54,680 bases of DNA. Source: Nemertoderma westbladi. Lineage: Eukaryota > Animalia > Xenacoelomorpha. The stretch covers positions 1-54,680 of the forward strand of contig JAUCBJ010006165.1 in NCBI GenBank assembly GCA_032718475.1, given 5' to 3'. Below are positions 3,001 through 54,680 of the stretch, piece by piece; within the stretch, counting starts at the first letter, position 1; every line of letters begins with the position of its first letter. Made by a program: the position numbers and the translations under genes. The notes below the pieces were generated by a model, which had not been told where the DNA came from, made no database searches, and saw only the letters and a list, made by a program, of their open reading frames with translations.

Positions 3001-3958
3001 AACCACTCCAAGTTGACACGTTCTACCACACAGCAACCTACCCAACCACTCCAAGTTGGCACGTTCTACCACACAGCAACCTACCCAACCACTCCAAGGT
3101 TGGCACGTTCTACCACACAGCAACCTACCCAACCACTCCAAGTTGGCGCGTTCTACCACACAGCAACCTACCCAACCACTCCAAGTTGGCACGTTCTACC
3201 ACACAGCAACCTACCCAACCACTCCAAGTTGGCACGTTCTACCACACAGCAACCTACCCAACCACTCCAAGGTTGGCACGTTCTACCACACAGCAACCTA
3301 CCCAACCACTCCAAGTTGGCACGTTCTACCACACAGCAACCTACCCAACCACTCCAAGTTGGCACGTTCTACCACACAGCAACCTACCCAACCACTCCTA
3401 GTTGGCACGTTCTACCACACAGCAACCTACCCAACCACTCAAAGTTGGCACGTTCTACCACACAGCAACCTACCCAACCACTCAAGTTGGCACGTTCTAC
3501 CACACAGCAACCTACCCAACCACTCCAAGTAGGCACGTTCTACCACACAGCAACCTACCCAACCACTCCAAGTTGGCACGTTCTACCACGCAGCAACCTA
3601 CCCAACCACTCCAAGTTGGCACGTTCTACCACACAGCAACCTACCCAACCACTCCAAGTAGGCACGTTCTACCGCACAGCAACCTACACAACCACTCCAA
3701 GTTGGCACGTTCTACCACACAGCAACCTAGCCAACCACTCCAAGTTGGCACGTTCTACCACGCAGCAACCTACCCAACCACTCCAAGTTGGCACGTTCTA
3801 CCACACAGCAACCTACCCAACCACTCCAAGTAGGCACGTTCTACCACACAGCAACCTACCCAACCACTCCAAGTAGGCACGTTCTACCGCACAGCAACCT
3901 ACACAACCACTCCAAGTTGGCACGTTCTACCACACAGCAACCTACCCAACCACTCCAC
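1..3958. repeat. 43-bp tandem satellite (ttggcacgttctaccacacagcaacctacccaaccactccaag), ~92 copies
   Basis: Directly visible 43-bp period with few variants. A variant pattern at ~81-540 recurs ~1034-1077 bp later. The overlapping ORFs in the track are translations of the repeat. Confidence 0.98.
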
Positions 3959-4049
3959 ATTGCTACGTCCTGCCACACTTAAGGCGCGCTTATTTAGAGC
4001 AGCAGTAGTTCCAGTACTCCCATGTATGTTGGAATCCATGCTGAGCTCT
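3959..4049 (+). mobile_element. Short RTE-type LINE fragment
   Basis: cttaaggcgcgcttatttagagcagcagtagttccagtactcc translates as LKARLFRAAVVPVL and matches the RTE fragment at 10047-11845 on the opposite strand. Confidence 0.6.
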
Positions 4050-17077: not shown

Positions 17078-17424
17078 TAGGGTGAAAAAAGTACACTTAA
17101 TTTGGTCTCGTTTTCGATTGGATCAAGTACTTTGGACTGAGTATGTTGGTTGTAGACAAAAAAGTAGGCCATCTATATTTAACAAGGGTGATTCTGTATC
17201 CATTCATCCAATCGCAAGGGAGACGTAATTAATACGTTTTTAATGACCAATAACAAATTTTTCGAAAATGATCACTACTTCAAATAATTATTCTCTGCTG
17301 AGCAAAATAATTCAATTTATTGCGCAAATTAATTAATTTTGCTGGGCAAACCAAATATTTCTGGGGAGAAATAAAATGTAGTGAGTTTTAATACTTAATG
17401 TAAGGCATAATCGATGACGATGGT

Positions 17425-29400: not shown

Positions 29401-32400
29401 ACCTACCAGCAGTATTTAATTGCACCTACCAGCAGTATTTAATTGCACCTACCAGCAGTATTTAATTGAACCTACAAGCAGTATTTAATTGGACCTACCA
29501 GCAGTATTTAATTGGACCCACAAGCAGTATTTAATTGGACCTACCAGCAGTATTTAATTGGACCTACAAGCAGTATTTAATTGCACCTACCAGCAGTATT
29601 TAATTGGACCTATCAGCAGTATTTAATTGCACCTACCAGCAGTATTTAATTGGACCCACAAGCAGTATTTAATTGGACCTACCAGTAGTATTTAATTGGA
29701 CCTACAAGCAGTATTTAATTGGACCCACCAGCAGTATTTAATTGGACCCACCAGCAGTATTTAATTGGACCTACCAGCAGTATTTAATTGGACCTACCAG
29801 CAGTATTTAATTGGACCTACCAGCAGTATTTAATTGGACCTACCAGCAGTATTTAATTGGACCTACCAGCAGTATTTAATTGGACCTACCAGCAGTATTT
29901 AATTGAACCTACAAGCAGTATTTAATTGGACCTACCAGCAGTATTTAATTGGACCCACAAGCAGTATTTAATTGGACCTACCAGCAGTATTTAATTGGAC
30001 CTACAAGCAGTATTTAATTGCACCTACCAGCAGTATTTAATTGGACCTATCAGCAGTATTTAATTGCACCTACCAGCAGTATTTAATTGGACCTACCAGC
30101 AGTATTTAATTGAACCTACAAGCAGTATTTAATTGGACCTACCAGCAGTATTTAATTGGACCTACAAGCAGTATTTAATTGCACCTACCAGCAGTATTTA
30201 ATTGGACCTATCAGCAGTATTTAATTGCACCTACCAGCAGTATTTAATTGGACCTACCAGCAGTATTTAATTGGACCTACCAGCAGTATTTAATTGGACC
30301 TACCAGCAGTATTTAATTGGACCTATCAGCAGTATTTAATTGCACCTACCAGCAGTATTTAATTGGACCTATCAGCAGTATTTAATTGCACCTACCAGCA
30401 GTATTTAATTGGACCTACCAGCAGTATTTAATTGAACCTACAAGCAGTATTTAATTGGACCTACCAGCAGTATTTAATTGCACCTACCAGCAGTATTTAA
30501 TTGGACCTACCAGCAGTATTTAATTGGACCCACCAGCAGTATTTAATTGAACCTACAAGCAGTATTTAATTGGACCTACCAGCAGTATTTAATTGCACCT
30601 ACCAGCAGTATTTAATTGGACCTACCAGCAGTATTTAATTGGACTTACCAGCAGTATTTAATTGCACCTACCAGCAGTATTTAATTGGACCTACCAGCAG
30701 TATTTAATTGGACCTATCAGCAGTATTTAATTGCACCTACCAGCAGTATTTAATTGCACCTACCAGCAGTATTTAATTGGACCTACCAGCAGTATTTAAT
30801 TGGACCTACCAGCAGTATTTAATTGGACCTACCAGCAGTATTTAATTGGACCCACAAGCAGTATTTAATTGGACCTACCAGTAGTATTTAATTGGACCTA
30901 CAAGCAGTATTTAATTGGACCCACCAGCAGTATTTAATTGGACCCACCAGCAGTATTTAATTGGACCTACCAGCAGTATTTAATTGGACCTACCAGCAGT
31001 ATTTAATTGGACCTACCAGCAGTATTTAATTGGACCTACCAGCAGTATTTAATTGCACCTACCAGCAGTATTTAATTGGACCCACAAGCAGTATTTAATT
31101 GGACCTACCAGTAGTATTTAATTGGACCTACAAGCAGTATTTAATTGGACCCACCAGCAGTATTTAATTGGACCCACCAGCAGTATTTAATTGGACCTAC
31201 CAGCAGTATTTAATTGGACCTACCAGCAGTATTTAATTGGACCTACCAGCAGTATTTAATTGGACCTACCAGCAGTATTTAATTGGACCTACCAGCAGTA
31301 TTTAATTGGACCTACCAGCAGTATTTAATTGAACCTACAAGCAGTATTTAATTGGACCTACCAGCAGTATTTAATTGGACCCACAAGCAGTATTTAATTG
31401 GACCTACCAGCAGTATTTAATTGGACCTACAAGCAGTATTTAATTGCACCTACCAGCAGTATTTAATTGGACCTATCAGCAGTATTTAATTGCACCTACC
31501 AGCAGTATTTAATTGGACCTACCAGCAGTATTTAATTGAACCTACAAGCAGTATTTAATTGGACCTACCAGCAGTATTTAATTGGACCTACAAGCAGTAT
31601 TTAATTGCACCTACCAGCAGTATTTAATTGGACCTATCAGCAGTATTTAATTGCACCTACCAGCAGTATTTAATTGGACCTACCAGCAGTATTTAATTGG
31701 ACCTACCAGCAGTATTTAATTGCACCTACCAGCAGTATTTAATTGGACCTACAAGCAGTATTTAATTGAACCTACAAGCAGTATTTAATTGGACCTACAA
31801 GCAGTATTTAATTGCACCTACCAGCAGTATTTAATTGAACCTACAAGCAGTATTTAATTGGACCTACCAGCAGTATTTAATTGGACCTACCAGCAGTATT
31901 TAATTGGACCTACAAGCAGTATTTAATTGCACCTACCAGCAGTATTTAATTGGACCTATCAGCAGTATTTAATTGGACCTATCAGCAGTATTTAATTGCA
32001 CCTACCAGCAGTATTTAATTGGACCTACCAGCAGTATTTAATTGGACCTACAAGCAGTATTTAATTGCACCTACCAGCAGTATTTAATTGAACCTACAAG
32101 CAGTATTTAATTGGACCTACAAGCAGTATTTAATTGCACCTACCAGCAGTATTTAATTGGACCTATCAGCAGTATTTAATTGGACCTATCAGCAGTATTT
32201 AATTGCACCTACCAGCAGTATTTAATTGGACCTATCAGCAGTATTTAATTGCACCTACCAGCAGTATTTAATTGGACCTACAAGCAGTATTTAATTGGAC
32301 CTACCAGCAGTATTTAATTGGACCTACCAGCAGTATTTAATTGAACCTACAAGCAGTATTTAATTGCACCTACAAGCAGTATTTAATTGCACCTACAAGC

Positions 32401-35400
32401 AGTATTTAATTGGACTTACCAGCAGTATTTAATTGGACCTACCAGCAGTATTTAATTGGACCTACCAGCAGTATTTAATTGCACCTACCAGCAGTATTTA
32501 ATTGGACCTACAAGCAGTATTTAATTGAACCTACAAGCAGTATTTAATTGGACCTACAAGCAGTATTTAATTGCACCTACCAGCAGTATTTAATTGAACC
32601 TACAAGCAGTATTTAATTGGACCTACAAGCAGTATTTAATTGCACCTACCAGCAGTATTTAATTGGACCTATCAGCAGTATTTAATTGCACCTACCAGCA
32701 GTATTTAATTGGACCTACCAGCAGTATTTAATTGGACCTACAAGCAGTATTTAATTGCACCTACCAGCAGTATTTAATTGGACCTATCAGCAGTATTTAA
32801 TTGCACCTACCAGCAGTATTTAATTGGACCTACCAGCAGTATTTAATTGAACCTACAAGCAGTATTTAATTGGACCTACCAGCAGTATTTAATTGCACCT
32901 ACCAGCAGTATTTAATTGGACCTACCAGCAGTATTTAATTGGACTTACCAGCAGTATTTAATTGCACCTACCAGCAGTATTTAATTGCACCTACCAGCAG
33001 TATTTAATTGCACCTACCAGCAGTATTTAATTGAACCTACAAGCAGTATTTAATTGGACCTACCAGCAGTATTTAATTGGACCCACAAGCAGTATTTAAT
33101 TGGACCTACCAGCAGTATTTAATTGGACCTACAAGCAGTATTTAATTGCACCTACCAGCAGTATTTAATTGGACCTATCAGCAGTATTTAATTGCACCTA
33201 CCAGCAGTATTTAATTGGACCCACAAGCAGTATTTAATTGGACCTACCAGTAGTATTTAATTGGACCTACAAGCAGTATTTAATTGCACCTACCAGCAGT
33301 ATTTAATTGGACCTATCAGCAGTATTTAATTGCACCTACCAGCAGTATTTAATTGAACCTACAAGCAGTATTTAATTGAACCTACAAGCAGTATTTAATT
33401 GGACCTACCAGCAGTATTTAATTGGACCTACAAGCAGTATTTAATTGCACCTACCAGCAGTATTTAATTGGACCTATCAGCAGTATTTAATTGCACCTAC
33501 CAGCAGTATTTAATTGGACCTACCAGCAGTATTTAATTGGACCTATCAGCAGTATTTAATTGCACCTACCAGCAGTATTTAATTGGACCTATCAGCAGTA
33601 TTTAATTGCACCTACCAGCAGTATTTAATTGGACCTACCAGCAGTATTTAATTGAACCTACAAGCAGTATTTAATTGGACCTACCAGCAGTATTTAATTG
33701 CACCTACCAGCAGTATTTAATTGGACCTACCAGCAGTATTTAATTGGACCTACCAGCAGTATTTAATTGGACCCACCAGCAGTATTTAATTGAACCTACA
33801 AGCAGTATTTAATTGGACCTACCAGCAGTATTTAATTGCACCTACCAGCAGTATTTAATTGGACCTACCAGCAGTATTTAATTGGACTTACCAGCAGTAT
33901 TTAATTGCACCTACCAGCAGTATTTAATTGGACCTACCAGCAGTATTTAATTGGACCTATCAGCAGTATTTAATTGCACCTACCAGCAGTATTTAATTGG
34001 ACCTATCCGCAGTATTTAATTGAACCTACAAGCAGTATTTAATTGGAACTACCAGCAGTATTTAATTGCACCTACCAGCAGTATTTAATTGCACCTACCA
34101 GCAGTATTTAATTGGACCTATCAGCAGTATTTAATTGCACCTACCAGCAGTATTTAATTGGACCTATCAGCAGTATTTAATTGCACCTACCAGCAGTATT
34201 TAATTGCACCTACCAGCAGTATTTAATTGAACCTACAAGCAGTATTTAATTGGACCTACCAGCAGTATTTAATTGCACCTACCAGCAGTATTTAATTGGA
34301 CCTACCAGCAGTATTTAATTGGACTTACCAGCAGTATTTAATTGCACCTACCAGCAGTATTTATTTGCACCTACCAGCAGTATTTAATTGCACCTACCAG
34401 CAGTATTTAATTGAACCTACAAGCAGTATTTAATTGGACCTACCAGCAGTATTTAATTGGACTCACAAGCAGTATTTAATTGAACCTACAAGCAGTATTT
34501 AATTGGACCCACAAGCAGTATTTAATTGAACCTACAAGCAGTATTTAATTGGACCTACCAGCAGTATTTAATTGGACCTACCAGCAGTATTTAATTGGAC
34601 CTACAAGCAGTATTTAATTGCACCTACCAGCAGTATTTAATTGGACCTACAAGCAGTATTTAATTGGACCCACAAGCAGTATTTAATTGAACCTACAAGC
34701 AGTATTTAATTGGACCTACCAGCAGTATTTAATTGGACCTACAAGCAGTATTTAATTGGACCTACCAGCAGTATTTAATTGGACCTACAAGCAGTATTTA
34801 ATTGCACCTACCAGCAGTATTTAATTGGACCTACAAGCAGTATTTAATTGCACCTACCAGCAGTATTTAATTGGACCTACAAGCAGTATTTAATTGGACC
34901 CACAAGCAGTATTTAATTGAACCTACAAGCAGTATTTAATTGGACCTACCAGCAGTATTTAATTGGACCTACAAGCAGTATTTAATTGGACCTACCAGCA
35001 GTATTTAATTGGACCTACAAGCAGTATTTAATTGCACCTACCAGCAGTATTTAATTGGACCTACAAGCAGTATTTAATTGCACCTACCAGCAGTATTTAA
35101 TTGGACCTACAAGCAGTATTTAATTGGACCCACAAGCAGTATTTAATTGAACCTACAAGCAGTATTTAATTGGACCTACCAGCAGTATTTAATTGGACCT
35201 ACAAGCAGTATTTAATTGGACCTACCAGCAGTATTTAATTGGACCTACAAGCAGTATTTAATTGCACCTACCAGCAGTATTTAATTGGACCTACAAGCAG
35301 TATTTAATTGGACCCACAAGCAGTATTTAATTGAACCTACAAGCAGTATTTAATTGGACCCACAAGCAGTATTTAATTGAACCTACAAGCAGTATTTAAT

Positions 35401-36475
35401 TGGACCTACCAGCAGTATTTAATTGGACCTACCAGCAGTATTTAATTGGACCTACAAGCAGTATTTAATTGCACCTACCAGCAGTATTTAATTGGACCTA
35501 TCAGCAGTATTTAATTGCACCTACCAGCAGTATTTAATTGGACCTACCAGCAGTATTTAATTGAACCTACAAGCAGTATTTAATTGGACCTACCAGCAGT
35601 ATTTAATTGGACCTACAAGCAGTATTTAATTGCACCTACCAGCAGTATTTAATTGGACCTATCAGCAGTATTTAATTGCACCTACCAGCAGTATTTAATT
35701 GGACCTACCAGCAGTATTTAATTGAACCTACAAGCAGTATTTAATTGGACCTACCAGCAGTATTTAATTGAACCTACAAGCAGTATTTAATTGGACCTAC
35801 CAGCAGTATTTAATTGGACCCACAAGCAGTATTTAATTGGACCTACCAGCAGTATTTAATTGGACCTACAAGCAGTATTTAATTGCACCTACCAGCAGTA
35901 TTTAATTGGACCTACAAGCAGTATTTAATTGCACCTACCAGCAGTATTTAATTGCACCTACCAGCAGTATTTAATTGCACCTACCCGCAGTATTTAATTG
36001 GACCTATCAGCAGTATTTAATTGCACCTACCAGCAGTATTTAATTGGACCTACCAGCAGTATTTAATTGGACCTACAAGCAGTATTTAATTGGACCTACC
36101 AGCAGTATTTAATTGCACCTACCAGCAGTATTTAATTGGACCTACCAGCAGTATTTAATTGGACCTACCAGCAGTATTTAATTGCACCTACCAGCAGTAT
36201 TTAATTGGACCTACCAGCAGTATTTAATTGCACCTACCAGCAGTATTTAATTGGACCTACCAGCAGTATTTAATTGCACCTACCAGCAGTATTTAATTGG
36301 ACCTACCAGCAGTATTTAATTGGACCTACCAGCAGTATTTAATTGGACCTACCAGCAGTATTTAATTGGACCTACCAGCAGTATTTAATTGGACCTACCA
36401 GCAGTATTTAATTGGACCTACCAGCAGTATTTAATTGGACCTACCAGCAGTATTTAATTGGACCTACCAGCAGTA
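17425..36475 (-). repeat. ~19 kb intronic 23-bp satellite (~830 copies) derived from a NEK10 5' splice site
   Basis: Plus-strand unit gtatttaattggacctaccagca. On the minus strand the unit is TACTGCTG|GTAGGTCCAATTAAA, and the first copy is the authentic junction of exon 36468-36646. Confidence 0.98.
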
Positions 36476-36646
36476 CAGCAGTGTGCCCACCATACTTCTC
36501 ATCAAAGAATTGTGGTGTTTTGTTCTTGCCAAACCGAAGTCCGTAATGGTAACTCTATCGGATTCCCCCAGGAGAATGTTACCCGGAGAAAGATCACGAT
36601 GAACTATGTGTTTTTCCTTATGTAGATAACGAATGGCTAACACAAT
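36468..36646 (-). CDS. NEK10: NEK10 exon (catalytic loop and activation segment)
   Basis: tttttcattttgtaacag|[46 protein letters not shown]...MVGTLLYC; 179 nt. TG+T joins to the next exon as YCCPE. Confidence 0.95.
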
Positions 36647-39806: not shown

Positions 39807-41400
39807 TAATAATAATAATAATAATAATTTCTTTTTATTCGCAAAAACTCCGCAACAAGTTAAAAAACCGCACAGAGGCAGCCTAACAGAATAAGATCCC
39901 ATTATAGCTGATTATTACGCGAATAAAGCGTCACAACCTACGATTTTAATTTGTACTATAAAATTAACATACAGTAGGTTTAGTACTCAACTAATCTATA
40001 ATAATGTACTGTACAATATGTACACAGTACCTTAAGCACAAACTTCGATCAAACTCGTTAGCCAGCTGTCTCCGGCATATATTTGTTTAAATTTATAGTC
40101 ATATTAGTGTGTTTAATTTATGTTATGTCGTCACGTGAGTACATTTTGTAAAATTCCTTCTTTAGTTTATTTGTAAATTTGCTATATGACTTTGTTTCGC
40201 GAATATTTAAATTTAGAGAATTCCACAGTCTCGTACAACTAACCATCACGCTGTTGTATCCAAATTTTGTTTTTGTTACTTTGATACGGAATGTTCTTTT
40301 ATTTATGTTTTTATTTTGCATTTTAAAATTTTTAAGGAAAGCAATACTTAGATTTTTAAATGGTGTTGATAAATCGAAAAAATATTTAAAGAAGTATTTT
40401 AGTACGTAGAAATTTCGAAGTGCTTGTAAGTGGGGTAATTTTGCCTTAGTGCGTAATTCTGTCCCAGTGGCATCTCTGATTTTTTTGCAGTAGACAGTGC
40501 GTAGCCCGTAGTTTTGAATTTTATCTAGCCCGTAAAGTAATTCTTTGTACCCGTGTGTCATATGTAGTGGTGTAATAATTTCACAGCAGTAATTATGTAG
40601 TGGTAGGACAGTAGCCTTATACACTGTTAGTTTCGTGTTAGTAGGTAATTGACCTTTAATAAGTCTTAAACATGATACTGCATGGGTCATTTTCTCAGCA
40701 ATCAATTTTATTTTATTTGTGGCTTCCAAGTAATTTTATTATCAATTATTATTCCTAGGTATTTAAATTGCGAGCTCTGTTTAACGGTTGCTTTTCCTAT
40801 GTGCAGGTTAATTTTTTCTATCTCATTTGTTCTAGAATGTGGAGTTATTAAAATAAATTCAGTTTTTTCGGGATTTAGTTGCATTTTTAAACTTGAAAAG
40901 GTACTATCTATTTTTAATATACGATTTGATAGAGTTTGGGTAGCAGCGATCGGATCCGGTCCTGATGCAAAGATGAGAGTGTCGTCAGCGTATTGAATGA
41001 TGTTAAGGTCTTCAGATTCAGCAATTTCGTTGACGTATATGAGGAACATAAGAGGTCCCAAAAGTGTTCCTTGCGGAATTCCCCGTTCAGTCTGTTCCCA
41101 ACTGGAGAAGTTACCGTTGAGCTTAACCCTTTGTTTTCGTTGGCAAAGGTAGTCTTTCATTAGGGAGACAGCAGTCGAATGGAGACCAATTTCTTTTAAT
41201 TTTAGAAGAAGAATATGATGATTCAACGAATCGAAAGCCTTACTTAGCTACAGCCACGTGATTTCCTTTGTCAAGTTTTGATCGCCAATTCTCAGTTGCG
41301 TATATAATCACATCCTTAGTAGAAAAAGATTTCCGAAAACCAAACTGTTTGCTAGGGAGTAGTTTATTTTTAGTTATGTATGTGATTAATTGTATATAGA
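39807..41400 (-). mobile_element. CR1/L2-group LINE, 5'-truncated, frameshifted RT
   Basis: QFGFRK, GIPQGTLLGPLMFLIYVNE, QYADDT and KYLGIIID motifs in ORFs 40708-41226 and 40118-40729. The 3' end has aataaa and a (tta)n tail at ~39807-39826. Confidence 0.9.
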
Positions 41401-42168: not shown

Positions 42169-43551
42169 TCAAACAGGATTAACAGTCTGTGGGCCTAACA
42201 GATATTCCGAAGTACCAGGGTAGTAACCCAATTGCTCGAGATTTACGTACTGTCCGCAGTTCGAGTATACACTGTCTGCAGTAGCATTGGGCATCACCCC
42301 CCGCCAAGCCATCGCTATCGCCTCCGCTGACTTGTGATCCACAACATCCCTCCACATCCTGTAATTATATTGCTCGTAAAAAGTGTTATTTTTCACAAAT
42401 TTTTCTACCGCTTCTTCTTTTGGAAGAGAGAGTCGTCTATAAAGCCTTTCGTAGAAACCAATAGGGTCGATGGCAAGGTCCTCATAACGAATAATGACTG
42501 TCGCCTTTGAAATTGCAGGGTCTGTCTGGACCGTATTCACCATATTTGCCATCCATGGGCAGTAGACTAGTTCCGTGACTTCCTCTGCAGTATATTTACC
42601 CAACTTACTTTTAGCTAATGAATCGATTATTTTAGCCATCGATGACGCCTGGCCACGCGGGTCCCTAAACAAAACTACAATCTTAAAATTATCTTCCAAG
42701 ACAAGCCGGCGTACTGCCGGACCTAAATCCATAACTCGGGTTGTCTTGATCACACGAATGTCCTTCCCTAAACACATTTCCCGAACTCCATCCAAATCAT
42801 AGTTAGCATTGCCAACGAAACCCCCGTTTGCGGAATTCTTACATATTCCCGCATCCATAATCAATTTTGTTTCACAACCTTTGTTAAACATTTTGAAGGA
42901 ATTTGGCCATTCGCAATTCAACAAATACTCCAAGGATCCTCTTTTAACTGCGTCGGGAAATTCCCAAGGTAACAACCTATTTTTATAATAATCGAAAAAT
43001 GAATCGCAAGTCTCATTAAATTGAGTAAAGAGACTGCAGTTACCTTTACGACTAAGCAATGCATTATTCACATATTTCAAAGGTTCATAAAAGTAGAAAA
43101 TATTAGGGTTTTGGTTGAAGATTTCACCAGTGAAACTGGAACCAGTGCGCATAAAAGTAACCAAAATAATTTTTAAAGGGTTGTAATTTGGAACTGTTGA
43201 TGTCATATGTGTATATAATCTACCATTGGCTGCCGCACTTGCTGTCCCATGGGTGGGACTCTTCTCATTGGTTGATGGGCGTACTGAATTGCTAAATGTA
43301 GAAGGTTTTTCATTGGTTGGTGTAGATCCCAGGTCATTCCATTGTAAAAAACTTCCATCTTCCCGTCCTGTTGTTGCTGTTCTAGGCGGAGGGATGTTTT
43401 CATTGGCTGATTCTTTGGGCGAATAGGAGATTATATAATAGATGGTATCATACGTTTGATTTGGATATAGGTATAATAATGATAGGGGTGCAGCAATAAA
43501 TGCTAGTAGGATTATAAAATTACGCCAAGTGATTACACGACGTGACGCCAT
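42169..43551 (-). CDS. Golgi carbohydrate (Gal/GlcNAc) 6-O-sulfotransferase, CHST1-family-like, 460 aa, single coding exon
   Basis: N-terminal TM helix, Ser/Thr-rich stem, 5'-PSB motif TFMRTGSSFTGEIFNQNP..YFYEP, 3'-PB motif LFRDPRG, and IRYEDLA. First ATG at 43551; possible 5' UTR acceptor ttgtag| near 43583. Confidence 0.92.
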   Translation of the reverse strand: MASRRVITWRNFIILLAFIAAPLSLLYLYPNQTYDTIYYIISYSPKESANENIPPPRTATTGREDGSFLQWNDLGSTPTNEKPSTFSNSVRPSTNEKSPTHGTASAAANGRLYTHMTSTVPNYNPLKIILVTFMRTGSSFTGEIFNQNPNIFYFYEPLKYVNNALLSRKGNCSLFTQFNETCDSFFDYYKNRLLPWEFPDAVKRGSLEYLLNCEWPNSFKMFNKGCETKLIMDAGICKNSANGGFVGNANYDLDGVREMCLGKDIRVIKTTRVMDLGPAVRRLVLEDNFKIVVLFRDPRGQASSMAKIIDSLAKSKLGKYTAEEVTELVYCPWMANMVNTVQTDPAISKATVIIRYEDLAIDPIGFYERLYRRLSLPKEEAVEKFVKNNTFYEQYNYRMWRDVVDHKSAEAIAMAWRGVMPNATADSVYSNCGQYVNLEQLGYYPGTSEYLLGPQTVNPV

Positions 43552-43882
43552 CACCAAAGTATAACAGAATTATATAATTTAACCTACAATAATACTTCTT
43601 AGATAGATTGATAAAAGTGGCTGCGAAAGTGATTTTTCCAGAGAATTCGGGTGGGGAGTGTAAAACCATGGAATACTAAAAATACACGGAAGGGGTATGA
43701 TACATTTGTCCTTTCGTGTATATTTAGTATTCCATGGTAAAACCCTCACATATAAACTTACTATAAAGTTTGTCAACACAACTTTTATTCAATAAACTGT
43801 TTATTTGAAATGAACAACTTTATCAAAGTTACAGCTGACTCATTTAAATCCAGAAAACACTGCAAAAATTGTTGGACCATGG

Positions 43883-45185: not shown

Positions 45186-47295
45186 AAATGAGAGTACTGC
45201 CGAGCCTAACAGCCAATCAAATGTGAGTACTGCCGAGTCTAAAAGCCAATACAATGCGAGTACTGCCTAGTCTAACAGCCAATTAAATGGGAGTACTGCC
45301 TAGTCTAACAGCCAATCTAATGAGAGTACTAACTAGTCTAACAGCCAATCCAATGAGAGTACTAACTAGTCTAACAGCCAATCCAATGAGAGTACTAACT
45401 AGTCTAACAGCCAATCCAATGAAAGTACTAACTAGTCTAACAGTCAATCCTATGAAAGTACTAACTAGTCTAACAGCCAATCCAATGCGAGTACTGAACC
45501 GGCAATCCAATGAGAGTACTAACTAGTCTAACAGCCAATCCAATGCGAGTACTAACTAGTCTAACAGCCAATCCAATGAAAGTACTAACTAGTCTAACAG
45601 CCAATCCAATGTAAGTACTAACTGTACTAACTAGTCTAACAGCCAATCCAATGCGAGTACTGAACAGCCAATGCAATGAGAGTACTAACTAGTCTAACAG
45701 CCGATCGGATGAAAGTACAAACTAGTCTAACAGCCAATCCAATGCGAGTACTGAACAGCCAATCCAATGAGAGTACTAACTAGTCTAACATCCAATCCAA
45801 TGGGAGTTCTGAACAGCCAATCCAATGCGAGTACTGAACAGCCAATCCAATGAGAGTACTAACTAGTCTAACAGCAAATCCAATGAAAGTACTAACTAGT
45901 CTAACAGCCAATCCAATGAAAGTACTAACTAGTCTAACAGCCAATCCAATGCGAGTACTGATCAACCAATCCAATGCGAGTACTGAACAGCCAATCCAAT
46001 GCGAGTACTGAACAGCCAATCCAATGAGAGTACTAACTAGTCTAACAGTCAATCTGATGAAAGTACAAACTAGTCTAACAGCCAATCCAATGGGAGTTCT
46101 GAACAGCCAATCCAATGCGAGTACTGAACAGCCAATCCAATGAGAGTACTAACTAGTCTAACAGCAAATCCAATGAAAGTACTAACTAGTCTAACAGCCA
46201 ATCCAATGAAAGTACTAACTAGTCTAACAGTCAATCCAATGAAAGTACTAACTAGTCTAACAGTCAATCTGATGAAAGTACAAACTAGTCTAACAGCCAA
46301 TCCAATGGGAGTTCTGAACAGCCAATCCAATGCGAGTACTGAACAGCCAATCCAATGAGAGTACTAACTAGTCTAACAGCAAATCCAATGAAAGTACTAA
46401 CTAGTCTAACAGCCAATCCAATGAAAGTACTAACTAGTCTAACAATCAATCCTATGAAAGTACTAACTAGTCTAACAGCCAATCCAATGAAAGTACTAAC
46501 TAGTCTAACAGCCAATCCAATGAGAGTACTGAACAGCCAATCCAATGAGAGTACTAACTAGTCTAACATCCAATCCAATGGGAGTTCTGAACAGCCAATC
46601 CAATGCGAGTACTGAACAGCCAATCCCATGAGAGTACTAACTAGTCTAACAGCCAATCCTATGAAAGTACTGAACAGCTAATCCAATGCGAGTACTGAAC
46701 AGCCAATCCCATGAGAGTACTAACTAGTCTAACAGCCAATCTGATGAAAGTACAAACTAGTCTAACAGCCAATCCAATGGGAGTACTGAACAGCCAATCC
46801 CATGAGAGTTCTAACTAGTCTAACAGTCAATCCTATGAAAGTACTAACTAGTCTAACAGCCAATCCTATGAAAGTACTAACTAGTCTAACAGCCAATCCA
46901 ATGAGAGTACTAACTAGTCTAACAGCCAATCCAATGCGAATACTAACTAGTCTAACAGCCAACTCAATGAGAGTACTAACTAGTCTAACAGCCAATCCAA
47001 TGCGAGTACTGAACAGCCAATCCAATGAGAGTACTAACTAGTCTAACAGCCAATCTGATGAAAGTACAAACTAGTCTAACAGCCAATCCAATGCGAGTAC
47101 TGAACAGCCAATCCAATGAGAGTACTAACTAGTCTAACAGCCAATCCAATGAGAGTACTGAACAGCTAATACAATGCGAGTACTGAACAGCCAATCCCAT
47201 GAGAGTACTAACTAGTCTAACAGCAAATCCTATGAAAGTACTAACTAGTCTAACAGCCAATCCAATAAAAGTACTAACTAGTCTACTAGTCTAAC
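45186..47295. repeat. Composite 33/25-bp satellite (gagagtactaactagtctaacagccaatccaat / gcgagtactgaacagccaatccaat)
   Basis: Two related unit lengths are interspersed, with a local ~215-bp higher-order period. Degenerate copies lie at the left edge. Confidence 0.96.
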
Positions 47296-47296
47296 G

Positions 47297-50200
47297 GTAC
47301 TACTAGGGGTAGTACCAGTGAGGGTGATCGGGGAAGGCAATCGATCAGTAACCACACTGATGCTGGTCGACAGTGGAGCAGCCTTCACCTTGGTTGAGAA
47401 TTGGGTGGCCGAAGAGATAGGATTGAGAACGAGGCCAAGTAGAATGGCGGTAACAACCATCTCCAGCAAAGATGAGGTCCTGGAGATGAGGACCGGACGG
47501 TGCGGGATAGCAGCGATAGCACCAGGATGCGACTATGGGGTGACCATCGACCCCATCCAGGTGATAGAGTCGATAAATATCAACGCCAGGCGACCAACCA
47601 ACATCGAGGTCGAACAATATAAATTCCTGGACAGTGTCGACTTCTCAATCCCAGAGGTGGACATTAGGAAGGTATCCATTATAGTAGGAATGGACTGCCC
47701 GACGGCCCATGAGAGAATGCAAACGGTCTTCGGCGAAGACAGGCAGTGTGACCTGGTGGCGATCTTAACACCATTTGGGTGGACGCTGAGCGGCCCAATC
47801 AGAAGCAAAATACCGTTCAGGATGTCGGAGACATCAGGGTGCATGTTCGCGGGAACTATGCGAGAGATGGGAGATGAGGGAGTGGAGGAGCAGCTCAGGA
47901 GACTGCTCAGGCAAGATTTTGAGGGATTGAAAGAGACCGGGGTCGGAACCTCGGTAGAAGATAAACAGGCTCTACAAAGCGTAAAGGAATCGATGACATG
48001 CGACGAGGGGCGGTATACCTTAGGGATGGTATGGAAACTACCGAAGCTACCGCTACCCGACAATAAAGGAATGGTACTCACGATGCTTCGTAAGTTGAAG
48101 CAAATGCTAAAGTGGAGCCCCGAAAAGAATGAGTACATTCATAAGACGATTAGGAAGTATGTCGAGAAAGGATGGGCCGTAGAGTTACCGGTCGACGAAC
48201 CGAGCACGGACAGGACCTACTACCTGCCACTCCACGTGGCTCTAGATCCGAAGAAAGGTAAACTGCGGATGGTAGTTGACGCATCGGCTAAGACCAACAG
48301 CAAATGCTTAAACGATTATCTGCTGGAGGGTCCCAATATCTATAACTCAGGGATCGAGGTCCTACTCAGATTCAGGAACGGGAAACATGCCTTCACCTGC
48401 GACATCGAAGGCATGTTCAACCAAGTCCGTATAACGGAAGAGGATAGCGACAGTCAGCGCTTCCTATGGTACAATGGCGACGAGGAACCGTCGACAATAC
48501 CGATGTACAAGATGGTGGTGCAGAATATGGGAGCCAAGTCGTCTTCATTTACGACGACTGTGGCCGTAAGAGACACAGTAGATGGGAAAGAAGAGAGATA
48601 CAGTGCCAAAGCCGTCGATATGATTCGACACGGCTTCTATGTAGACGACGGGTTGGAGTCTGGAAATACGGTTAAGGAACTACTGGATACAGGGCACGAA
48701 GTTCGCGACATCCTTAAAGGATCCGGCTTCAACCTGACCAAGTTCCAATCCAGCTCGGAAGAGTTTATGAGAGCCATAGAGGACAGGAGGCCAGAGTCGG
48801 CCATGGATAATCCCACGACAACCAAGGGACAAGAAATGGCGAACAAGAGGATAGAGTACCAACAGAAGGCACTAGGGATCGTGTGGAACCGAGAGACAGA
48901 CGAACTGAAGTACCAATTGAGCCAGGAGGGCGCAGACATCCACACAAAGAGGGGCTACGTGTCGTACATAGCAAGGATATACGACCCCCTAGGCCTAGCA
49001 TCCCCATTACTAGTCACGGGGAAACAGATACTTAAGAAAGTATACAAACTAAAGGAGGAATGGGAGAGATCAGCAAGCAATGGAATAAGTGGACAGAGAG
49101 TTTAGAACAGATGGGGACATACAGCATGCCAAGGGTGTATTTCCCGGATGGGGACATGACGAATCTAGACCTGCACATGTTCTCCGATGCGTCATTGGAA
49201 GCATACGGAGCGGCACTCTACCTAGTACAACGGGAAGGGGCTCATAAGCCCAGGCTTGCATTCAGCAAAGCTAAGTCGACGCCGCCGGATTCAGCATTGG
49301 TCCCGAAACTCGAGTTGACAGCTGCAAGGTTAGGAGTAAGGGCCACAGCCTACTTAATGGATGCTATTCCCAACATAGTGGAAACACACTACTGGACGGA
49401 CTCCATGGTAGTGCTCGATGGCTACACAATGAAAGGACGAGATACCCTATATTCGTCGCAAATAGGGTGGACGAAATAAGAGCGACGACGGAATTGGAAA
49501 GGTGGCACTACTGCCCAACGGATGAGAACCCGGCGGACTTGTTATCAAGGGGCGTAGCACGCCACACTTTCTTGAAGAAGGAAGTATTGTGGCAGCACGG
49601 GCTGCAATTTCTGAACGATAAGACAGCCTGGCCACCGATGAAGAAGGTGGACCCGGGCTCGGAGGAAGTAGTATCAGAGGAAGAGGGAGGAGACTCAGAG
49701 GGTGAAGAGATATATAGCCAGATGGTGAGGGAGATAAGGGACGTGCAACCAAAACCGGAAGAACTGTGCGATAACCCGACGGACAGACTCCTTAGCTATA
49801 GCTCAAGTTGGTACAAGACCAACAAGTTAGTGGCGTACTGGAGAGCCTTCGGGGAATTCCTCAAGGGAGTCGGCAAAGACATAAAAAATAAAACAACCAT
49901 CGATCTGGAGGGAGCGGCCAAGGCCGTCATCCGCTACGAACAGAGAAAGAATTACGGCGACGAGGTGGAACGCGTCGGTAAACAACAGCATCTCCGATGG
50001 GACAGTGAGCTGATCGCGCTGTCGCACAACTCAATGATGATGGAATCTTAGTAATGAACTCCAGGGTGTTGAATAACAACAGTATCATCATTCCACCAAA
50101 GCCCATCATCATCCCTAATGGATCGCCGATAGTCCACCAGATCATCCGGGACTCCCACAAATCGATATTGCACGGGGGCACCAACCGGACCCTCACGGAG

Positions 50201-51225
50201 ATACGAAGGACCTTTTGGGTCAAACAGTTAAGGAAGAAGGTAAAGGCGGTAGTGGGGCAGTGCCAGACCTGCCGACGGACGAAGAAGGAGCGGGCCATAC
50301 AGGAGATGGCGCCACCACCGGCCAGTAGGGTGAGAAAGCACGACCCGCCATTCACGCACTGCGGTGTGGATATGTTCGGGCCGATAAAGATCAAGGTGAT
50401 GCGGCACACGGAGAAGCGTTACGGCATTATCTTCGTATGTAACAACACGCGGGCGGTAGGGATAGAACTCGCCCAAGATGCAACTGCATTGGCATTCATC
50501 AATGCCCTAGAGAGGTTCAGGGACCGCAAAGGTGGGATGATCGCAGTAATATACTCGGATAATGGAACCAACTTTGTGGGGGCGGAGAACGAGATGGCAG
50601 AGGCCTTGGACATCCTGGAAGGGGAGGAAGTCAGGGCAGCCATGAGAAGACGACAGGTGAAGTGGGAGGGGAGGACGCCGTATGCTCCGCATACTCTAGG
50701 ATGCATCGAGAGACTACCCACATGGTAACCGAAGATGTACTAAGGACAGTACTGGCAAAGTGCGAGGGTATCATTAATAGCAGACCGCTATATCCAGAAA
50801 ATGATGACCCAGAGTCATTAGATGTGTTGACGCCCAGTCACTTTCTAATGGAGAGACCAGCGACCATCGACATGCGGGGTGTGGACCCAGACGATATACA
50901 CTCCCGACAGAGTTGGAAAGTCGCTAAGGCGATAAGCGCGGAGTACTGGAGGAGGTGGGTCGAGGAATATCTACCCACGCTTATTAGGAGAAGCAAGTGG
51001 AGAAATATAAATAGGGAGTTGAAGGAGGGTGATCTGGTAATCGTCACGGACGATACCATCATCAACAACCAATGGAGATTGGCGAGAGTTGTGGGTACTT
51101 ACTCCGACGAGGACGGAAGAGTCCGATCGGTAGAGGTACGGATAGGTGGTAAGATAGGAGCGAAAGATAGGAAGACCTACAGGAGGGCTGTAGGCAAGTG
51201 CTGCCTTCTAGAGGGCGCACCATAA
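47297..51225 (+). pseudogene. BEL/Pao LTR retrotransposon pol (protease-RT-RNase H-integrase), frameshifted, gag and 5' LTR missing
   Basis: LVDSGA protease; YYLPLH, DIEGMFNQV, FYVDD RT; FSDAS...AYG, PKLEL, WTDS RNase H; H..HGG...C..C, GVDMFGP, SDNGTNFVG integrase; YWRRWVEEYL C-terminal block. Frame breaks near 49070, 49430, 50030 and 50720. Confidence 0.95.
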
Positions 51226-51260
51226 AGTTTAGTTTAGTTTAGTCGTCCAAGTTTTGGACT

Positions 51261-51280
51261 GGGGGGGGGGGGGGGGGGGG
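51261..51280 (+). other. Candidate polypurine tract followed by TG (possible LTR start at 51281)
   Basis: A G20 run 35 bp after the pol stop, followed by tgggattgag. This is the usual PPT position in BEL/Pao elements, but no second LTR is available to confirm it. Confidence 0.5.
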
Positions 51281-51389
51281 TGGGATTGAGGGCGAGACGC
51301 CCTTCCCACACATAAATATAAAAAAATAATAAATAAAGAAAGAGAAAGAGAGAGTAATAGTACGTAGTAGGTACGTAGTTAGTAAGTAG

Positions 51390-51625
51390 GCAGATAGAAG
51401 TTAGTAAGAGTTAGTAGTAAGAGGGTATGTAGTACCGTTAGTAGGAGTTAGTTAGAAGTTAGTAAGAGGGTACGTAGTACTGGTTAGTAGGAGTTAGTTA
51501 GAAGTTAGTAAGAGGGTACGTAGTACCAGTTATTAGGAGTTAGTGGAGTTAGAAGTTAGTAAGAGGGTACGTAGTTAGAGGTTATTAAGAGGGTACATAT
51601 AGTACCGTTAGCAGTAAGAGTTAGT
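51390..51625. repeat. Imperfect ~44-bp tandem repeats (gttagtaagagggtacgtagtacc...)
   Basis: About 5 visible copies in the non-coding spacer after pol. Confidence 0.75.
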
Positions 51626-52091
51626 AGCAGGAGGGTATGTATGATATGAAATATAGTGAGAGTTAGTAGAGATTAGTTAGGAAGTTAGTAGAGCTAGTAG
51701 TGAGTAGCGAGAGGGGGGCACGTGGGTACAGCTGGATAAATCGTGTAGGCCACGCGACGCATACTGTTGTACTGCACAAGCCCACGGAGTAGGCCAGAAT
51801 GTGGATTGTAAAATAGAATAATCCATTGGCAGAATACTGATAGCACAGTAGTAGGACTAAATTAAATATTAAAATAAAATAAAATTAGAAATTAGACAAA
51901 TTATGGTAACAGTAGGAGAAATATTCTGGAACATAATTAAAGTAACGGACAGAATTACGAAATTTAGTACAATTTGACACTTTTAGGAAATTAGGTAGGA
52001 AAATTAGGCGATAACCTAAGATTCAGCGAGAGATAGGCCATTATCGAACTGCACAGACCATCCTAACTTTATCACTCATCTGTATTGCGCC

Positions 52092-53987
52092 TTGGCAAGG
52101 CACCACCTTACGGGTGAGCGATTGGGAGAGTTCGAAATTGCGGAGAAACTTGTCCGAAAGAGAAAGGCGGAGTTAGGAGGAAAGGAGATACTGGTGGATT
52201 TCACCGAGGGGCATCCGAAAGAAAAGACGAGGGGATACTATGAGCGGTTAGAGAGGGGTCACGAAGCGCGAGCGCTACAGGACCATTTCAGGGAGATGCA
52301 CGAACGGCGACTGGTCGGGACCTACGGGACGCCGTCGCTAGACAACGCAATCTCCGAGCATTTCCACTACGTGGTGAAGGGAGACGAGGCGAAGTTCGGG
52401 ATTCCGAAGTACGCAAAGGAGCCACTGAGAAAAGATTGGAAGAGGTTCGTAGAGTCCATCAGCAGGGGAGGATACATGGTCCTAGACGATGAGGGGACCG
52501 TGGAAGACGAGGAAGGTTCGAGAAGAGGATCGGCTGGGTCGGCCAGAACCATATTCCTACATTTGGCCGTGCCAAATGGGGACATTTTCCTATTCGACCT
52601 GGGAATGTATGGAAAGAAGAACGGGCCGAAGTTGAACCGGTTGCCAAAGGCGGTGCAAACCCTGGTAAGAGAAAAGTCGATGACAAAGGTGGGATCGGCG
52701 ATCCGCGACGACGCGGAGAGAATCATCGGTCCAGACACCCCCAACCTCCTGGACATGCAGACAGTCTACATGGCTATGACAGCACCAGACGGGTTGGGAC
52801 TAGTGGAGAACACAGGCCATTGTGGAGCAGTGGCAATGGGCCAGCTAATGGGGCTTGTGTGTCACAAACCAATGGACTGGGGTAAGTTCAGAGAGGAGTA
52901 CAGAGCGGAGTTAGCAAACTCGCTGAAGTGGGGAGCGAGGCCAGGGAAACAAGAGGTGTATCAATTCCGGAGAGGAGCGATAAAGGTATATCAGAAGCGA
53001 TATATCCTGCAGGAGGACTGGATAATGATGGGTTTGCTAAACCTATTCATGACCGTCATCATCGAGAGAGAACCAACGGCATTCCTGCTATCAGGATCAT
53101 CCCTGAACTACAGAAGAGCCTTCAGGACGGCTTTCGAGGGTCTGGTAGACCACCCGGGGCTGAAGGGCGAGTCAGTATACTATAACTGCCGACATCTAGT
53201 AGACGGGGAGGTGGATACGCCATATCAGAGGTGGGAGCAGCTAGAGGCGGATAGACGAGAGGTGAAGCGATTGGAAGAAATCGCTAGGCGAGAAAGGAGG
53301 GAGGCAGAAGAAAGGGAGGAGGAGGCAAGAAGGGAAAGCTACGGGTTCGAGGAACAGGCGGCCTTAGACGAACTTCGCTGGACATCATCAGGGAGTTCGG
53401 GCGAGTCTCTAGGGCGAGAATTAGGATGGACGGTGGGATCAACGAAACAGTCGACATCGGGATTGCAGACAACGCCCATACCAGCGGGCGCCGAGGGCGA
53501 TTATACACTGAGGAGGCCAGGGGAGCTGGAAGGATGGAGAGTCACGGGCGAGAGCCAAGGCGGGAAGGGACAAAGTGGGTCCACCGGTATACCGGGATTG
53601 GAGCCACTCCCAGAGGAGGACGAGGATGACGACGAGTTCGGAGAGATGCCGCCCATCGAGAGGATCGGCCACTCGGACATGGACTGGGTTGGCGGGAGGG
53701 TGGTGACGGCCAGTGGGGCGAGAGCCTTCTGGGATAGACCCGGCAAGCGGGCCTGGGTGCATGAGGAGCCGGCGATGGATTTCGCGGGGAGCACCATCAG
53801 GTTGGGCGAGCAACCGGGAACGGCACCACGGGTAGTATTCGGAGAGACGATGCCCGGGAGGGGCGAGGAGATAGACGTGGACAGGGACGCTAACATCCAG
53901 GAGTGGGATCTTCGAGGAGTGGGCCGACGACGGCGCCATGACACGGCAGCGTATGAAGGCCCAGGAGTTCCGGTGGGGCTTCTTTAA
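52092..53987 (+). CDS. Retrotransposon-associated ORF with putative DEDDy (WRN/EXD2/Mut-7-like) 3'-5' exonuclease domain, coiled coil and acidic low-complexity tail
   Basis: ExoI-like MVLDDEG, then IFLHLA...IFLFDL, LPKAVQTLV...MTKVGSAIRDD (ExoII-like), LLDMQ, and YQKRYILQED (ExoIII-like). Same purine-rich composition and strand as pol. The start is uncertain (first ATG at 52296), with probable frameshifted continuation to ~54396. Confidence 0.65.
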   Translation: MARHHLTGERLGEFEIAEKLVRKRKAELGGKEILVDFTEGHPKEKTRGYYERLERGHEARALQDHFREMHERRLVGTYGTPSLDNAISEHFHYVVKGDEAKFGIPKYAKEPLRKDWKRFVESISRGGYMVLDDEGTVEDEEGSRRGSAGSARTIFLHLAVPNGDIFLFDLGMYGKKNGPKLNRLPKAVQTLVREKSMTKVGSAIRDDAERIIGPDTPNLLDMQTVYMAMTAPDGLGLVENTGHCGAVAMGQLMGLVCHKPMDWGKFREEYRAELANSLKWGARPGKQEVYQFRRGAIKVYQKRYILQEDWIMMGLLNLFMTVIIEREPTAFLLSGSSLNYRRAFRTAFEGLVDHPGLKGESVYYNCRHLVDGEVDTPYQRWEQLEADRREVKRLEEIARRERREAEEREEEARRESYGFEEQAALDELRWTSSGSSGESLGRELGWTVGSTKQSTSGLQTTPIPAGAEGDYTLRRPGELEGWRVTGESQGGKGQSGSTGIPGLEPLPEEDEDDDEFGEMPPIERIGHSDMDWVGGRVVTASGARAFWDRPGKRAWVHEEPAMDFAGSTIRLGEQPGTAPRVVFGETMPGRGEEIDVDRDANIQEWDLRGVGRRRRHDTAAYEGPGVPVGLL

Positions 53988-54680
53988 TATCAACCAGGAG
54001 GCCCACCTGGAGATTATCAAACAGAGACTTCCGTTTACCTACCAGGAGGTATCAACGGCGTCGTATGCCGGGGTGATAAATACGCAGAGGTATTTGGACA
54101 GGTGGACGCCATAGAACCGAGGATAGTTCAGGGATTTCTTGGCGGAGCATGTGCCGCGGGCGATGAAAGTGATCCTATGGGATGCCACTAGGGGGAAACA
54201 ACAGGGCCATTCGGAGGGGCCACCCGCGAAGCGATACCGGGAGCTGACGGGAATCAGTAGAGAGGTGACGGCGAGGGTCAGGAGTCTGAAGGGAGATAAG
54301 ACCAAGGGAGCGGCAGCGGCCAGGAAACGACCAAGGGAGGAGGAAGACAGAGGGAAGGAGTTGAGGTGGTTCCCAAAGTCAGGTGGAATGAACTAGAACT
54401 TGGATGTGGGATGCCTGGAAGGCACCACGTGAGAAGTACGAACTCCTAAGCGGAACATTTAAATAATTAAAAGTGCAATTAGTATGTACGTATGTAGTTA
54501 TCATTAGTCTAGTTAAAATTAAGCAAATATAATCAAAGTAAGTACTATAGTCATATAACCTTTTCCAATTAGCTACTGGGACTGGGGACCAATTGACTAT
54601 AACAGAACGAGACACTGGACGACTTCACACTTCTTGAGTGCGACGGCACAGAAGGGGAGGGTGAGGCCCGTCGGGAGAGA

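What the first reader, a model, noticed from the sequence alone, without database searches (positions are those of the whole stretch)
52092..53987. BEL/Pao retrotransposon apparently carrying a WRN/EXD2-like 3'-5' exonuclease gene
Seen: a 631-codon ORF ~870 bp downstream of pol, on the same strand with the same A/G-rich style, and lacking env hallmarks (no signal peptide or TM anchor evident). Residues ~128-315 show DnaQ/DEDDy motifs in the right order: D132-x-E134, the 'LHLA...IFLFDL' strands, 'LP..V..LV....MTKVG..I.DD' (D207), 'LLDMQ', and Y304-xxx-E/D. Established: this family includes the WRN exonuclease, EXD2, RNase D and the small-RNA trimmers Mut-7/Nibbler; standard BEL/Pao elements encode only gag-pol and sometimes env. 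Inference: this may be a captured nuclease acting as an anti-piRNA factor, cDNA end-processing enzyme or RT proofreader, which would define an unusual BEL lineage.
Basis: partly seen in the sequence, partly recalled or inferred. Interest (0 to 1): 0.85.

Follow-up and report, generated by a model that had tools for sequence, protein, structure and literature searches.

The report
Pao retrotransposon carrying a WRN-like exonuclease
A many-copy BEL/Pao-type jumping gene in an animal genome is followed by an extra, selection-maintained gene whose protein likely folds as a WRN-type RNA/DNA-trimming exonuclease and likely belongs to the element, a kind of cargo that we found in print only for rotifer retroelements.

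Summary
The ORF is real, but it has no start codon at 52092; its first ATG is at 52296. The upstream gene is a broken, gag-less BEL/Pao pol. Contigs from public DNA runs show both genes as many diverged copies. In the ORF, 27 of 34 listed variants shared among copies are synonymous, against one third expected, so it is under purifying selection. Pfam and phmmer find no relative. A DEDDy fold of the WRN type is still likely: 30 of 30 named language-model neighbours are PF01612, and the ordered motif set occurs in 119-120 of 120 WRN-like proteins but 0-1 of 20,000 shuffles (patterns written afterwards). The site reads D132-E134-D207-Y304-E308. A branch point, pyrimidine tract and AG at the ORF's start suggest an env-style spliced message (no RNA data). 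Unsettled: a G20 run plus TG directly after pol looks like an LTR start, and no LTR pair or bridging contig was seen, so linkage is inferred. DEDDy third genes are published for rotifer Juno/Vesta elements; nine searches found none for BEL/Pao. Verdict: new variant of a known kind; function untested.

The parts
47282..51225 (+). BEL/Pao pol (protease, RT, RNase H/Peptidase_A17, integrase, DUF5641), broken into five overlapping frames; gag absent, 5' end abuts a tandem array
   Evidence: frames 47282-49105, 49036-49479, 49275-50051, 50009-50728, 50563-51225; Peptidase_A17 E 2e-9 and 5e-24, DUF5641 1.5e-24, Integrase_H2C2 7e-14; RVT_1 and rve below their cut-offs
51261..51282 (+). Run of 20 G followed by TG, 36 bases after the pol stop: looks like a polypurine tract and LTR start, or an internal tract
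   Evidence: sequence; TRF 51261-51284; the reading as PPT rests on recalled LTR-element anatomy
51283..52019 (+). Non-coding, A/G-rich, C-poor spacer with degenerate 10-46 bp repeats; many indels among copies; CA-T-TGG at 51824-51829
   Evidence: table 4 (7 of 12 listed indels lie here) and table 5
52063..52099 (+). Predicted splice acceptor: CTAAC branch point, AG-free pyrimidine tract, AG at 52098-52099
   Evidence: most pyrimidine-rich 30-base window of 47295-54680 (0.70; mean 0.38, sd 0.10); no RNA evidence
52092..53987 (+). Extra ORF (631 codons from TTG; first ATG 52296), multi-copy, under purifying selection in the part tested
52410..53069 (+). Likely DEDDy 3'-5' exonuclease domain of the WRN/EXD2/Nibbler type (residues 107-326): ExoI D132/E134, ExoII D207, ExoIII Y304/E308
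   Evidence: alignment-guided model (circular)
53247..53987 (+). Charged, probably coiled-coil stretch (residues 386-428: 37% D+E, 26% K+R), then a Gly/acid-rich low-complexity tail without Pfam match
   Evidence: coiled coil inferred from composition
53875..54396 (+). Probable continuation of the ORF in another frame, interrupted by stops near 54112-54126 in this copy
   Evidence: stop-free 53875-54111 and 54127-54393 with third-position T 0.13 and 0.10, while the ORF's own frame rises to 0.18-0.27; loose ends of other copies at 53904-53906 and 54245
54650..54663 (+). Second purine run followed by TG, 17 bases before the window ends: candidate for the true 3' polypurine tract
   Evidence: sequence; untested, the window ends here

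Best explanation
This multi-copy, selection-maintained gene lies downstream of a BEL/Pao pol and is likely the element's own third gene, likely made from a spliced message and predicted to encode a WRN-type 3'-5' exonuclease that would trim RNA ends in the host cell. Shown: pol is BEL/Pao; the ORF is repeated and conserved as protein; its codon habits are those of pol. Inferred with good support: the DEDDy fold, with all five catalytic positions filled and Glu in place of the last Asp. Inferred with fair support: it sits in the env slot and is expressed by splicing. Inferred with weak support: the job. Because it is outside the gag-pol polyprotein and carries a charged coiled-coil-like stretch and a long disordered tail, I think it most likely acts in trans on RNA 3' ends, host small RNAs or silencing intermediates aimed at the element (about 35% of the functional odds), rather than proofreading for RT inside the particle. 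The copy in this window is dead.
For: Pol identity. Many diverged copies: 1561, 1071 and 1083 contigs of runs X1-X3 lie on 621 bases of the domain, spread over all identity bands; depth is high from 47326 to 54680 and drops to under a twentieth of the neighbouring pol bins before 47325. Selection: 30 of 34 shared listed variants at third positions, 27 synonymous, pN/pS about 0.13; 5 of 6 changes private to this copy are non-synonymous; no indel listed in 52440-53060 and 0 of 12 listed indels in the ORF. Fold: ESM Atlas 24 of 30 and 30 of 30 named hits PF01612, score 0.93, top name 'Werner syndrome-like exonuclease', 180 shared features (one source); HMM from 120 bacterial WRN-like proteins 3.5 bits, reached by 0 of 1000 full and 3 of 1000 local shuffles, best of the 171 window frames; hhalign P 0.025 in the expected register; MAFFT sets Q301, Y304, E308, W310 on the ExoIII motif; motif set in 0-1 of 20,000 shuffles. 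Glu at ExoIII is compatible with activity in RICE1 (PMC5451212, passages). Acceptor signal. ORF depth is 0.64-1.0 of pol depth, not twice it, and the longest BEL/Pao LTR in PMC3118150's table is 2427 bp, both against the ORF lying inside an LTR. Joints in other copies chain the spacer to the ORF (51915-52085, 51955-53249).
Against: No Pfam, NCBIfam or PDB-sequence hit; no relative among 1.84 billion representatives but one unrelated repeat protein or in two word-indexed searches. My own profile test gave only 4-17 of 500 shuffles at or above the observed score. The single-sequence model failed (pLDDT 38), and the good model was steered by a DEDDy alignment. The G run plus TG right after pol is where an LTR normally starts, and the read tool cuts reads at 51251-51292, so nothing bridges pol to the spacer. 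One contig of depth 1023 skips or replaces 51916-52084, which includes the branch point. Depth is not copy number by the tool's own warning. Only 40 of 125 variant places were shown, none beyond 52916, so conservation of ExoIII across copies is unseen. The rotifer study found no clear selection on the ORF3s it sequenced and no demonstrated activity (PMC5408684).
Confidence: 0.6

Rival explanations
1. The gene belongs to the element but not in the env slot: the LTR starts at 51281, and the ORF lies either inside a giant LTR or after a shared LTR of about 545 bp as the first gene of a tandem copy.
For: G20 plus TG 36 bases after the pol stop; CA-T-TGG at 51824-51829 would give an LTR of ordinary length (medians 212-754 bp); TATA-like and AATAAA signals at 51317 and 51328.
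Against: No inverted match of 6 or more bases to the TG start downstream; spacer and ORF depth are 0.54-1.0 of pol rather than double; an LTR holding the ORF would exceed 3.4 kb against a listed maximum of 2427 bp; a first gene needs no splice acceptor; no loose end at 51825 among the 24 shown of 2589 (weak).
Confidence: 0.17
2. The ORF belongs to a separate repeated element that inserted next to this BEL/Pao copy.
For: No contig bridges the G run; this copy is already truncated at its 5' end; DEDDy genes also ride on other retroelements such as Terminons (PMC5408684, PMC6431247).
Against: Same strand, same A/G skew and third-position usage as pol; similar depth in all four runs; no second transposase or RT in 51226-54680.
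Confidence: 0.1
3. The protein has the DEDDy shape but is catalytically weak or dead and works by binding RNA, like EXD1 or Maelstrom.
For: Glu replaces the ExoIII Asp; about 30 extra residues lie between ExoII and ExoIII; inactive DEDD derivatives act in piRNA biogenesis (PMC5408684 discussion).
Against: D132, E134, D207 and Y304 are all present; none of the 40 listed variant places falls in the codons of D132, E134 or D207 (85 places unseen); RICE1 is active with Glu at this position.
Confidence: 0.08
4. The ORF is a conserved element gene of another fold, and the exonuclease motifs are a coincidence.
For: All standard searches are blank; the Atlas scores shuffled proteins 0.9 or more 4 to 10 times in 100; the motif patterns were written after seeing the ORF.
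Against: Four motif blocks fall in the right order and spacing; WRN-like profile scores above shuffles while the NrnC profile does not; the single-sequence model puts strands and helices in the DEDDy order (low confidence); the guided model reaches pLDDT 76-85 over ExoII and ExoIII.
Confidence: 0.05

Closest known systems
DEDDy exonuclease ORF3 of bdelloid rotifer LTR retrotransposons Juno and Vesta, and of Terminons (Rodriguez, Kenefick, Arkhipova 2017, PMC5408684; parts 1-3 of 5 read, i.e. abstract to the start of the references, plus passages)
   Same: A DEDDy-type nuclease gene downstream of pol in place of env, without membrane anchor, with one catalytic Asp changed to Glu; the paper says ORF3s are typically expressed from spliced messages.
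   Different: Those carriers are Juno/Vesta elements; the words BEL and Pao do not occur in the paper. Their motif is given as DEED, here it reads DEDE. This ORF is long, with a charged stretch and tail. Here purifying selection among copies is measured. Kinship of the two nuclease sets was not tested, as the rotifer sequences were not at hand.
BEL/Pao LTR retrotransposons (de la Chaux and Wagner 2011, PMC3118150; passages, supplement 9 read, supplement 6 searched for four motifs)
   Same: Pol order PR-RT-RH-IN with Peptidase_A17 and DUF5641.
   Different: The paper says few carry env and never mentions an exonuclease (0 occurrences). The superfamily within BEL/Pao was not determined.
WRN exonuclease, EXD2, Mut-7/Nibbler and plant RICE1 (PF01612, DnaQ-like DEDDy)
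   Same: ExoI D-x-E, the LxLA strand, K-x-G-(5)-D ExoII and Q-x-x-Y-x-x-x-acid ExoIII in order; RICE1 also has Glu as last acid (PMC5451212, passages).
   Different: About 20% identity to bacterial WRN-like proteins and 11-16% to WRN, EXD2, Nibbler and RICE1 structures; insertions after ExoI and before ExoIII; encoded by a repeat, not a host gene. Which subfamily was the donor is not resolved.

Membership tests
BEL/Pao LTR retrotransposon | Pol with Pao-type domains in the order PR-RT-RH-IN | tested here: met
   Asp_protease_2, RVT_1 (weak), Peptidase_A17, Integrase_H2C2, rve (weak), DUF5641 in order
BEL/Pao LTR retrotransposon | Gag upstream of pol | tested here: inconclusive
   Absent from this copy: a 33-bp tandem array (45187-47285) abuts the protease; other copies not seen
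BEL/Pao LTR retrotransposon | Paired LTRs and target-site duplication | tested here: inconclusive
   No second LTR copy among the self-comparison rows shown (first 60 rows); window ends at 54680; no genome held
BEL/Pao LTR retrotransposon | Dispersed multi-copy family | tested here: met
   Thousands of diverged contigs in runs X1-X3; at most 3 samples; dispersal itself not mapped
ORF3 accessory gene of an LTR element | Lies between pol and the 3' LTR in independent copies | tested here: inconclusive
   Depth, composition and joints agree but nothing bridges the G run and no LTR is defined
ORF3 accessory gene of an LTR element | Expressed from a spliced subgenomic RNA | not testable with these tools
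   Acceptor-like signal at 52063-52099; no RNA holder listed
ORF3 accessory gene of an LTR element | Kept as protein across copies | tested here: met
   27 of 34 shared listed variants synonymous, 52490-52916 only
DEDDy 3'-5' exonuclease (PF01612) | Score above the Pfam cut-off | tested here: not met
   No Pfam family at E up to 1 or 10
DEDDy 3'-5' exonuclease (PF01612) | ExoI, ExoII, ExoIII motifs in order with Tyr | tested here: met
   D132-x-E134, D207, Y304-xxx-E308; last acid is Glu, not Asp
DEDDy 3'-5' exonuclease (PF01612) | RNase H-like DnaQ fold | tested here: inconclusive
   Unguided model failed; model guided by 84 WRN-like rows has pLDDT 68.6 and matches WRN exo at Z 9.4, rmsd 4.0, 156 aligned, which is circular; Atlas features agree
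DEDDy 3'-5' exonuclease (PF01612) | 3'-5' nuclease activity | not testable with these tools
   Needs an assay
env gene | Signal peptide, membrane anchor, cysteine and glycosylation pattern | tested here: not met
   best hydropathy window 1.34, 3 Cys, 0 sequons in the 631 codons; the broken 3' extension was not scored for hydropathy

The most novel reading that the evidence does not exclude
An undescribed BEL/Pao lineage captured a WRN/EXD-type exonuclease independently of the rotifer elements, long enough ago that no sequence relative remains findable, and expresses it from a spliced message as an active enzyme that trims or clears host small RNAs: a transposon-encoded counter-silencing nuclease taken from the very enzyme family that animals use to mature piRNAs.
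Probability: 0.2. Interest if true: 0.8.

Novelty: new variant of a known kind. Interest (0 to 1): 0.52.

Why it matters
Nuclease cargo in the env slot has been reported for rotifer retroelements without evidence of selection or activity. A high-copy BEL/Pao family that keeps a WRN-type nuclease under measurable purifying selection would show that the capture happened in a second, distant branch of LTR elements and that it pays. It gives a small, soluble domain with named catalytic residues that can be assayed, which bears on the open question whether animal retrotransposons encode their own suppressors of small-RNA silencing or their own end-processing enzymes.

Tried and rejected
No genome is held for the window, so copies, LTRs and target-site duplications could not be collected. 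Pfam, NCBIfam and PDB-sequence searches of the ORF or its domain were blank. Homologue searches were blank: 7994 and 116 candidates scored, none passing; 1 hit in 1.84 billion, an unrelated bacterial repeat protein matched over 33 residues. Lengths above 1105 and below 121 residues were not searched in the word-indexed database. Metagenome scan: 2 of 77 candidates passed, both a short chance match in an unrelated bacterial protein. Viral contigs: nothing for the ORF or RT. Phages: none; plasmids: one chance hit at E 8. Single-sequence AlphaFold gave pLDDT 38 and only helical-bundle matches. An NrnC profile from 38 of 40 fetched loci (2 dropped for a wrong frame) did not score the ORF above shuffles. 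No RNA holder listed. No tRNA gene in the window to test a primer site; no Rfam match in 51200-54680. Four RT motifs were absent from supplement 6 of PMC3118150, so no superfamily was assigned; its nucleotide supplement was not searched and could hold such elements. No tree against host EXD genes was built, since no eukaryotic relatives could be fetched. Earlier-scan look-ups for BEL/Pao with a nuclease, by sequence and by place returned nothing.

Full report
What is there. The last 7.4 kb of the window is one A/G-rich stretch on the + strand. From 47282 to 51225 lies a BEL/Pao pol in five overlapping frames, named by Peptidase_A17 (E 2e-9, 5e-24), DUF5641 (1.5e-24) and an integrase zinc finger (7e-14). 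Gag is missing; a 33-bp tandem array runs up to the protease. The copy is dead. After pol come a run of 20 G and TG (51261-51282), a 740-bp non-coding spacer and the ORF, open from 52020 to 53987. The 631-codon count starts at a TTG; the first ATG is residue 69. Nothing suggests env.

Is the ORF a gene? Three public DNA runs hold 33-44% of the sampled words of 50500-54680 (no RNA holder listed). Laying four runs (at most three samples) on the element gave 21957, 12506, 12584 and 151 contigs, with high summed depth from 47326 to the window's end and a sharp drop before it. On the 621 bases of the domain the tool listed 40 of 125 variant places. I split them at a share of 0.97, a threshold of my own. 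Of 34 shared among copies, 30 are at third positions and 27 are synonymous, where random transitions would give one third (binomial P 5e-8, pN/pS about 0.13). Of 6 private to this copy, 5 change the residue. Over all 40, 28 are synonymous (P 2e-6). Places are not independent events and the list stops at 52916, but the pattern is that of a gene kept by active lineages and decaying after insertion. No indel is listed in the domain, and of 12 listed indels of 177 over the whole element none is in the ORF. Seven joints show single contigs with deletions or rearrangements in the domain, as expected for dead copies. Third-position T is 0.09, like pol and unlike the host gene nearby, so the gene has lived in such an element for a long time.

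Is it an exonuclease? Standard searches are blank. The ESM Atlas returns PF01612 clusters at 0.93 (24 of 30 hits; 30 of 30 among named clusters; first 'Werner syndrome-like exonuclease', 180 shared features) and unnamed fungal clusters at 0.94-0.95 (one source, shuffled proteins reach 0.9 in 4-10 of 100). To test this I collected 120 bacterial proteins around a seed whose best solved relative is the WRN exonuclease (E 3.5e-19). An HMM of the 120 scores the ORF at only 3.5 bits, yet 0 of 1000 full shuffles, 3 of 1000 local shuffles and none of the other 170 window frames reach that. hhalign against 84 of the 120 gives P 0.025 over the LxLA strand and ExoII. My own profile alignment is matched by 4-9 of 500 full and 9-17 of 500 local shuffles, while an NrnC profile shows nothing. 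MAFFT places K199, G201, D207 on ExoII and Q301, Y304, E308, W310 on ExoIII. Three ordered motif patterns match the ORF, 119-120 of the 120 proteins and 0-1 of 20,000 shuffles; they were written after seeing the ORF, so that figure flatters. An unguided model failed. A model guided by the 84 rows has pLDDT 68.6 and returns EXD2 (Foldseek E 1e-5), WRN (Z 9.4, rmsd 4.0, 156 aligned) and Nibbler; this shows compatibility only. Together I put the DEDDy fold at about 90%. The last acid is Glu; RICE1 has Glu there and needs it for activity (PMC5451212, passages).

Does it belong to the element, and where? This is the weak step. For: same strand, composition and codon habit; median depth 0.67, 0.93, 0.64 and 1.0 of pol in the four runs (the tool warns that this is no copy number); joints in other copies that link spacer and ORF; and a branch point, the most pyrimidine-rich 30 bases of the element and the first AG exactly at the ORF's start, which would explain the missing ATG and fits the statement that third genes are made from spliced messages (PMC5408684). 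Against: by recalled anatomy a G run plus TG just after integrase marks the 3' LTR, a CA-T-TGG at 51824 could close an LTR of ordinary length, and the read tool cuts reads at the G run, so no contig bridges it. An LTR that held the ORF would exceed 3.4 kb, against a listed maximum of 2427 bp. A second purine run with TG at 54650-54663 may be the true tract, but the window ends there. The ORF itself probably extended to about 54396 and is broken in this copy near 53850-53990 and 54112-54126.

How it would work. A spliced message would give a soluble protein with a short N-terminal part, the nuclease domain, a charged helix and a disordered tail. Outside the gag-pol polyprotein it is not packaged by default, which argues against proofreading for RT. 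Relatives in the fold list act on RNA or DNA 3' ends (WRN, EXD2, Nibbler, RICE1, RNase D). I commit to trimming of RNA 3' ends in trans, most likely against small-RNA silencing, at about 35% among the functions; processing of the element's own RNA or cDNA ends about 30%; binding without cutting about 15%; the rest unknown. None of this was tested.

What is known. Rodriguez et al. 2017 report DEDDy ORF3s in rotifer Juno and Vesta elements and Terminons, activity undemonstrated; three reviews repeat this (PMC6338049, PMC5718144, PMC6431247; passages). The BEL/Pao survey has no mention of an exonuclease. Nine library searches (listings and abstract starts seen) showed no BEL/Pao case; Repbase and most subscription journals were out of reach. 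Unchecked notes of this scan describe Rrp6-like, DEDDh and TatD third genes in other LTR elements, mostly gypsy, which suggests nuclease cargo recurs and lowers the surprise; they are leads, not support.

Verdict. Observation confirmed, interpretation partly supported: a real, conserved, probably WRN-type nuclease gene that probably rides in a BEL/Pao family. New variant of a known kind; interest 0.52.

Noticed in passing
window 42169-43569 (-): Intact, apparently intronless 466-codon sulfotransferase gene (Sulfotransfer_1 E 5e-11) with an N-terminal hydrophobic stretch; the host gene next to the element.
   Followed up: partly
window 40118-41247 (-): Fragment of a LINE-type reverse transcriptase (RVT_1 E 1e-22) in two frames.
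   Followed up: partly
window about 17276-36600: A 19-kb satellite of 23-bp units, about 829 copies, 95-97% alike.
   Followed up: no
window 4-3978: 43-bp tandem repeat, 92 copies, 97% matches, strongly C-skewed.
   Followed up: no
window 45187-47285: 33-bp tandem array with higher-order units (83, 91, 215 bp) that ends exactly at the truncated protease, where gag should be.
   Followed up: partly
window 51955-53249: One contig of depth 291 in run X1 joins these places, a possible multi-copy derivative that lacks the whole nuclease domain.
   Followed up: no
window 50482-51270 and 53638-54426: In run X5 these two stretches are several times deeper than the rest of the element; perhaps a related family or derivative that shares only these parts.
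   Followed up: no
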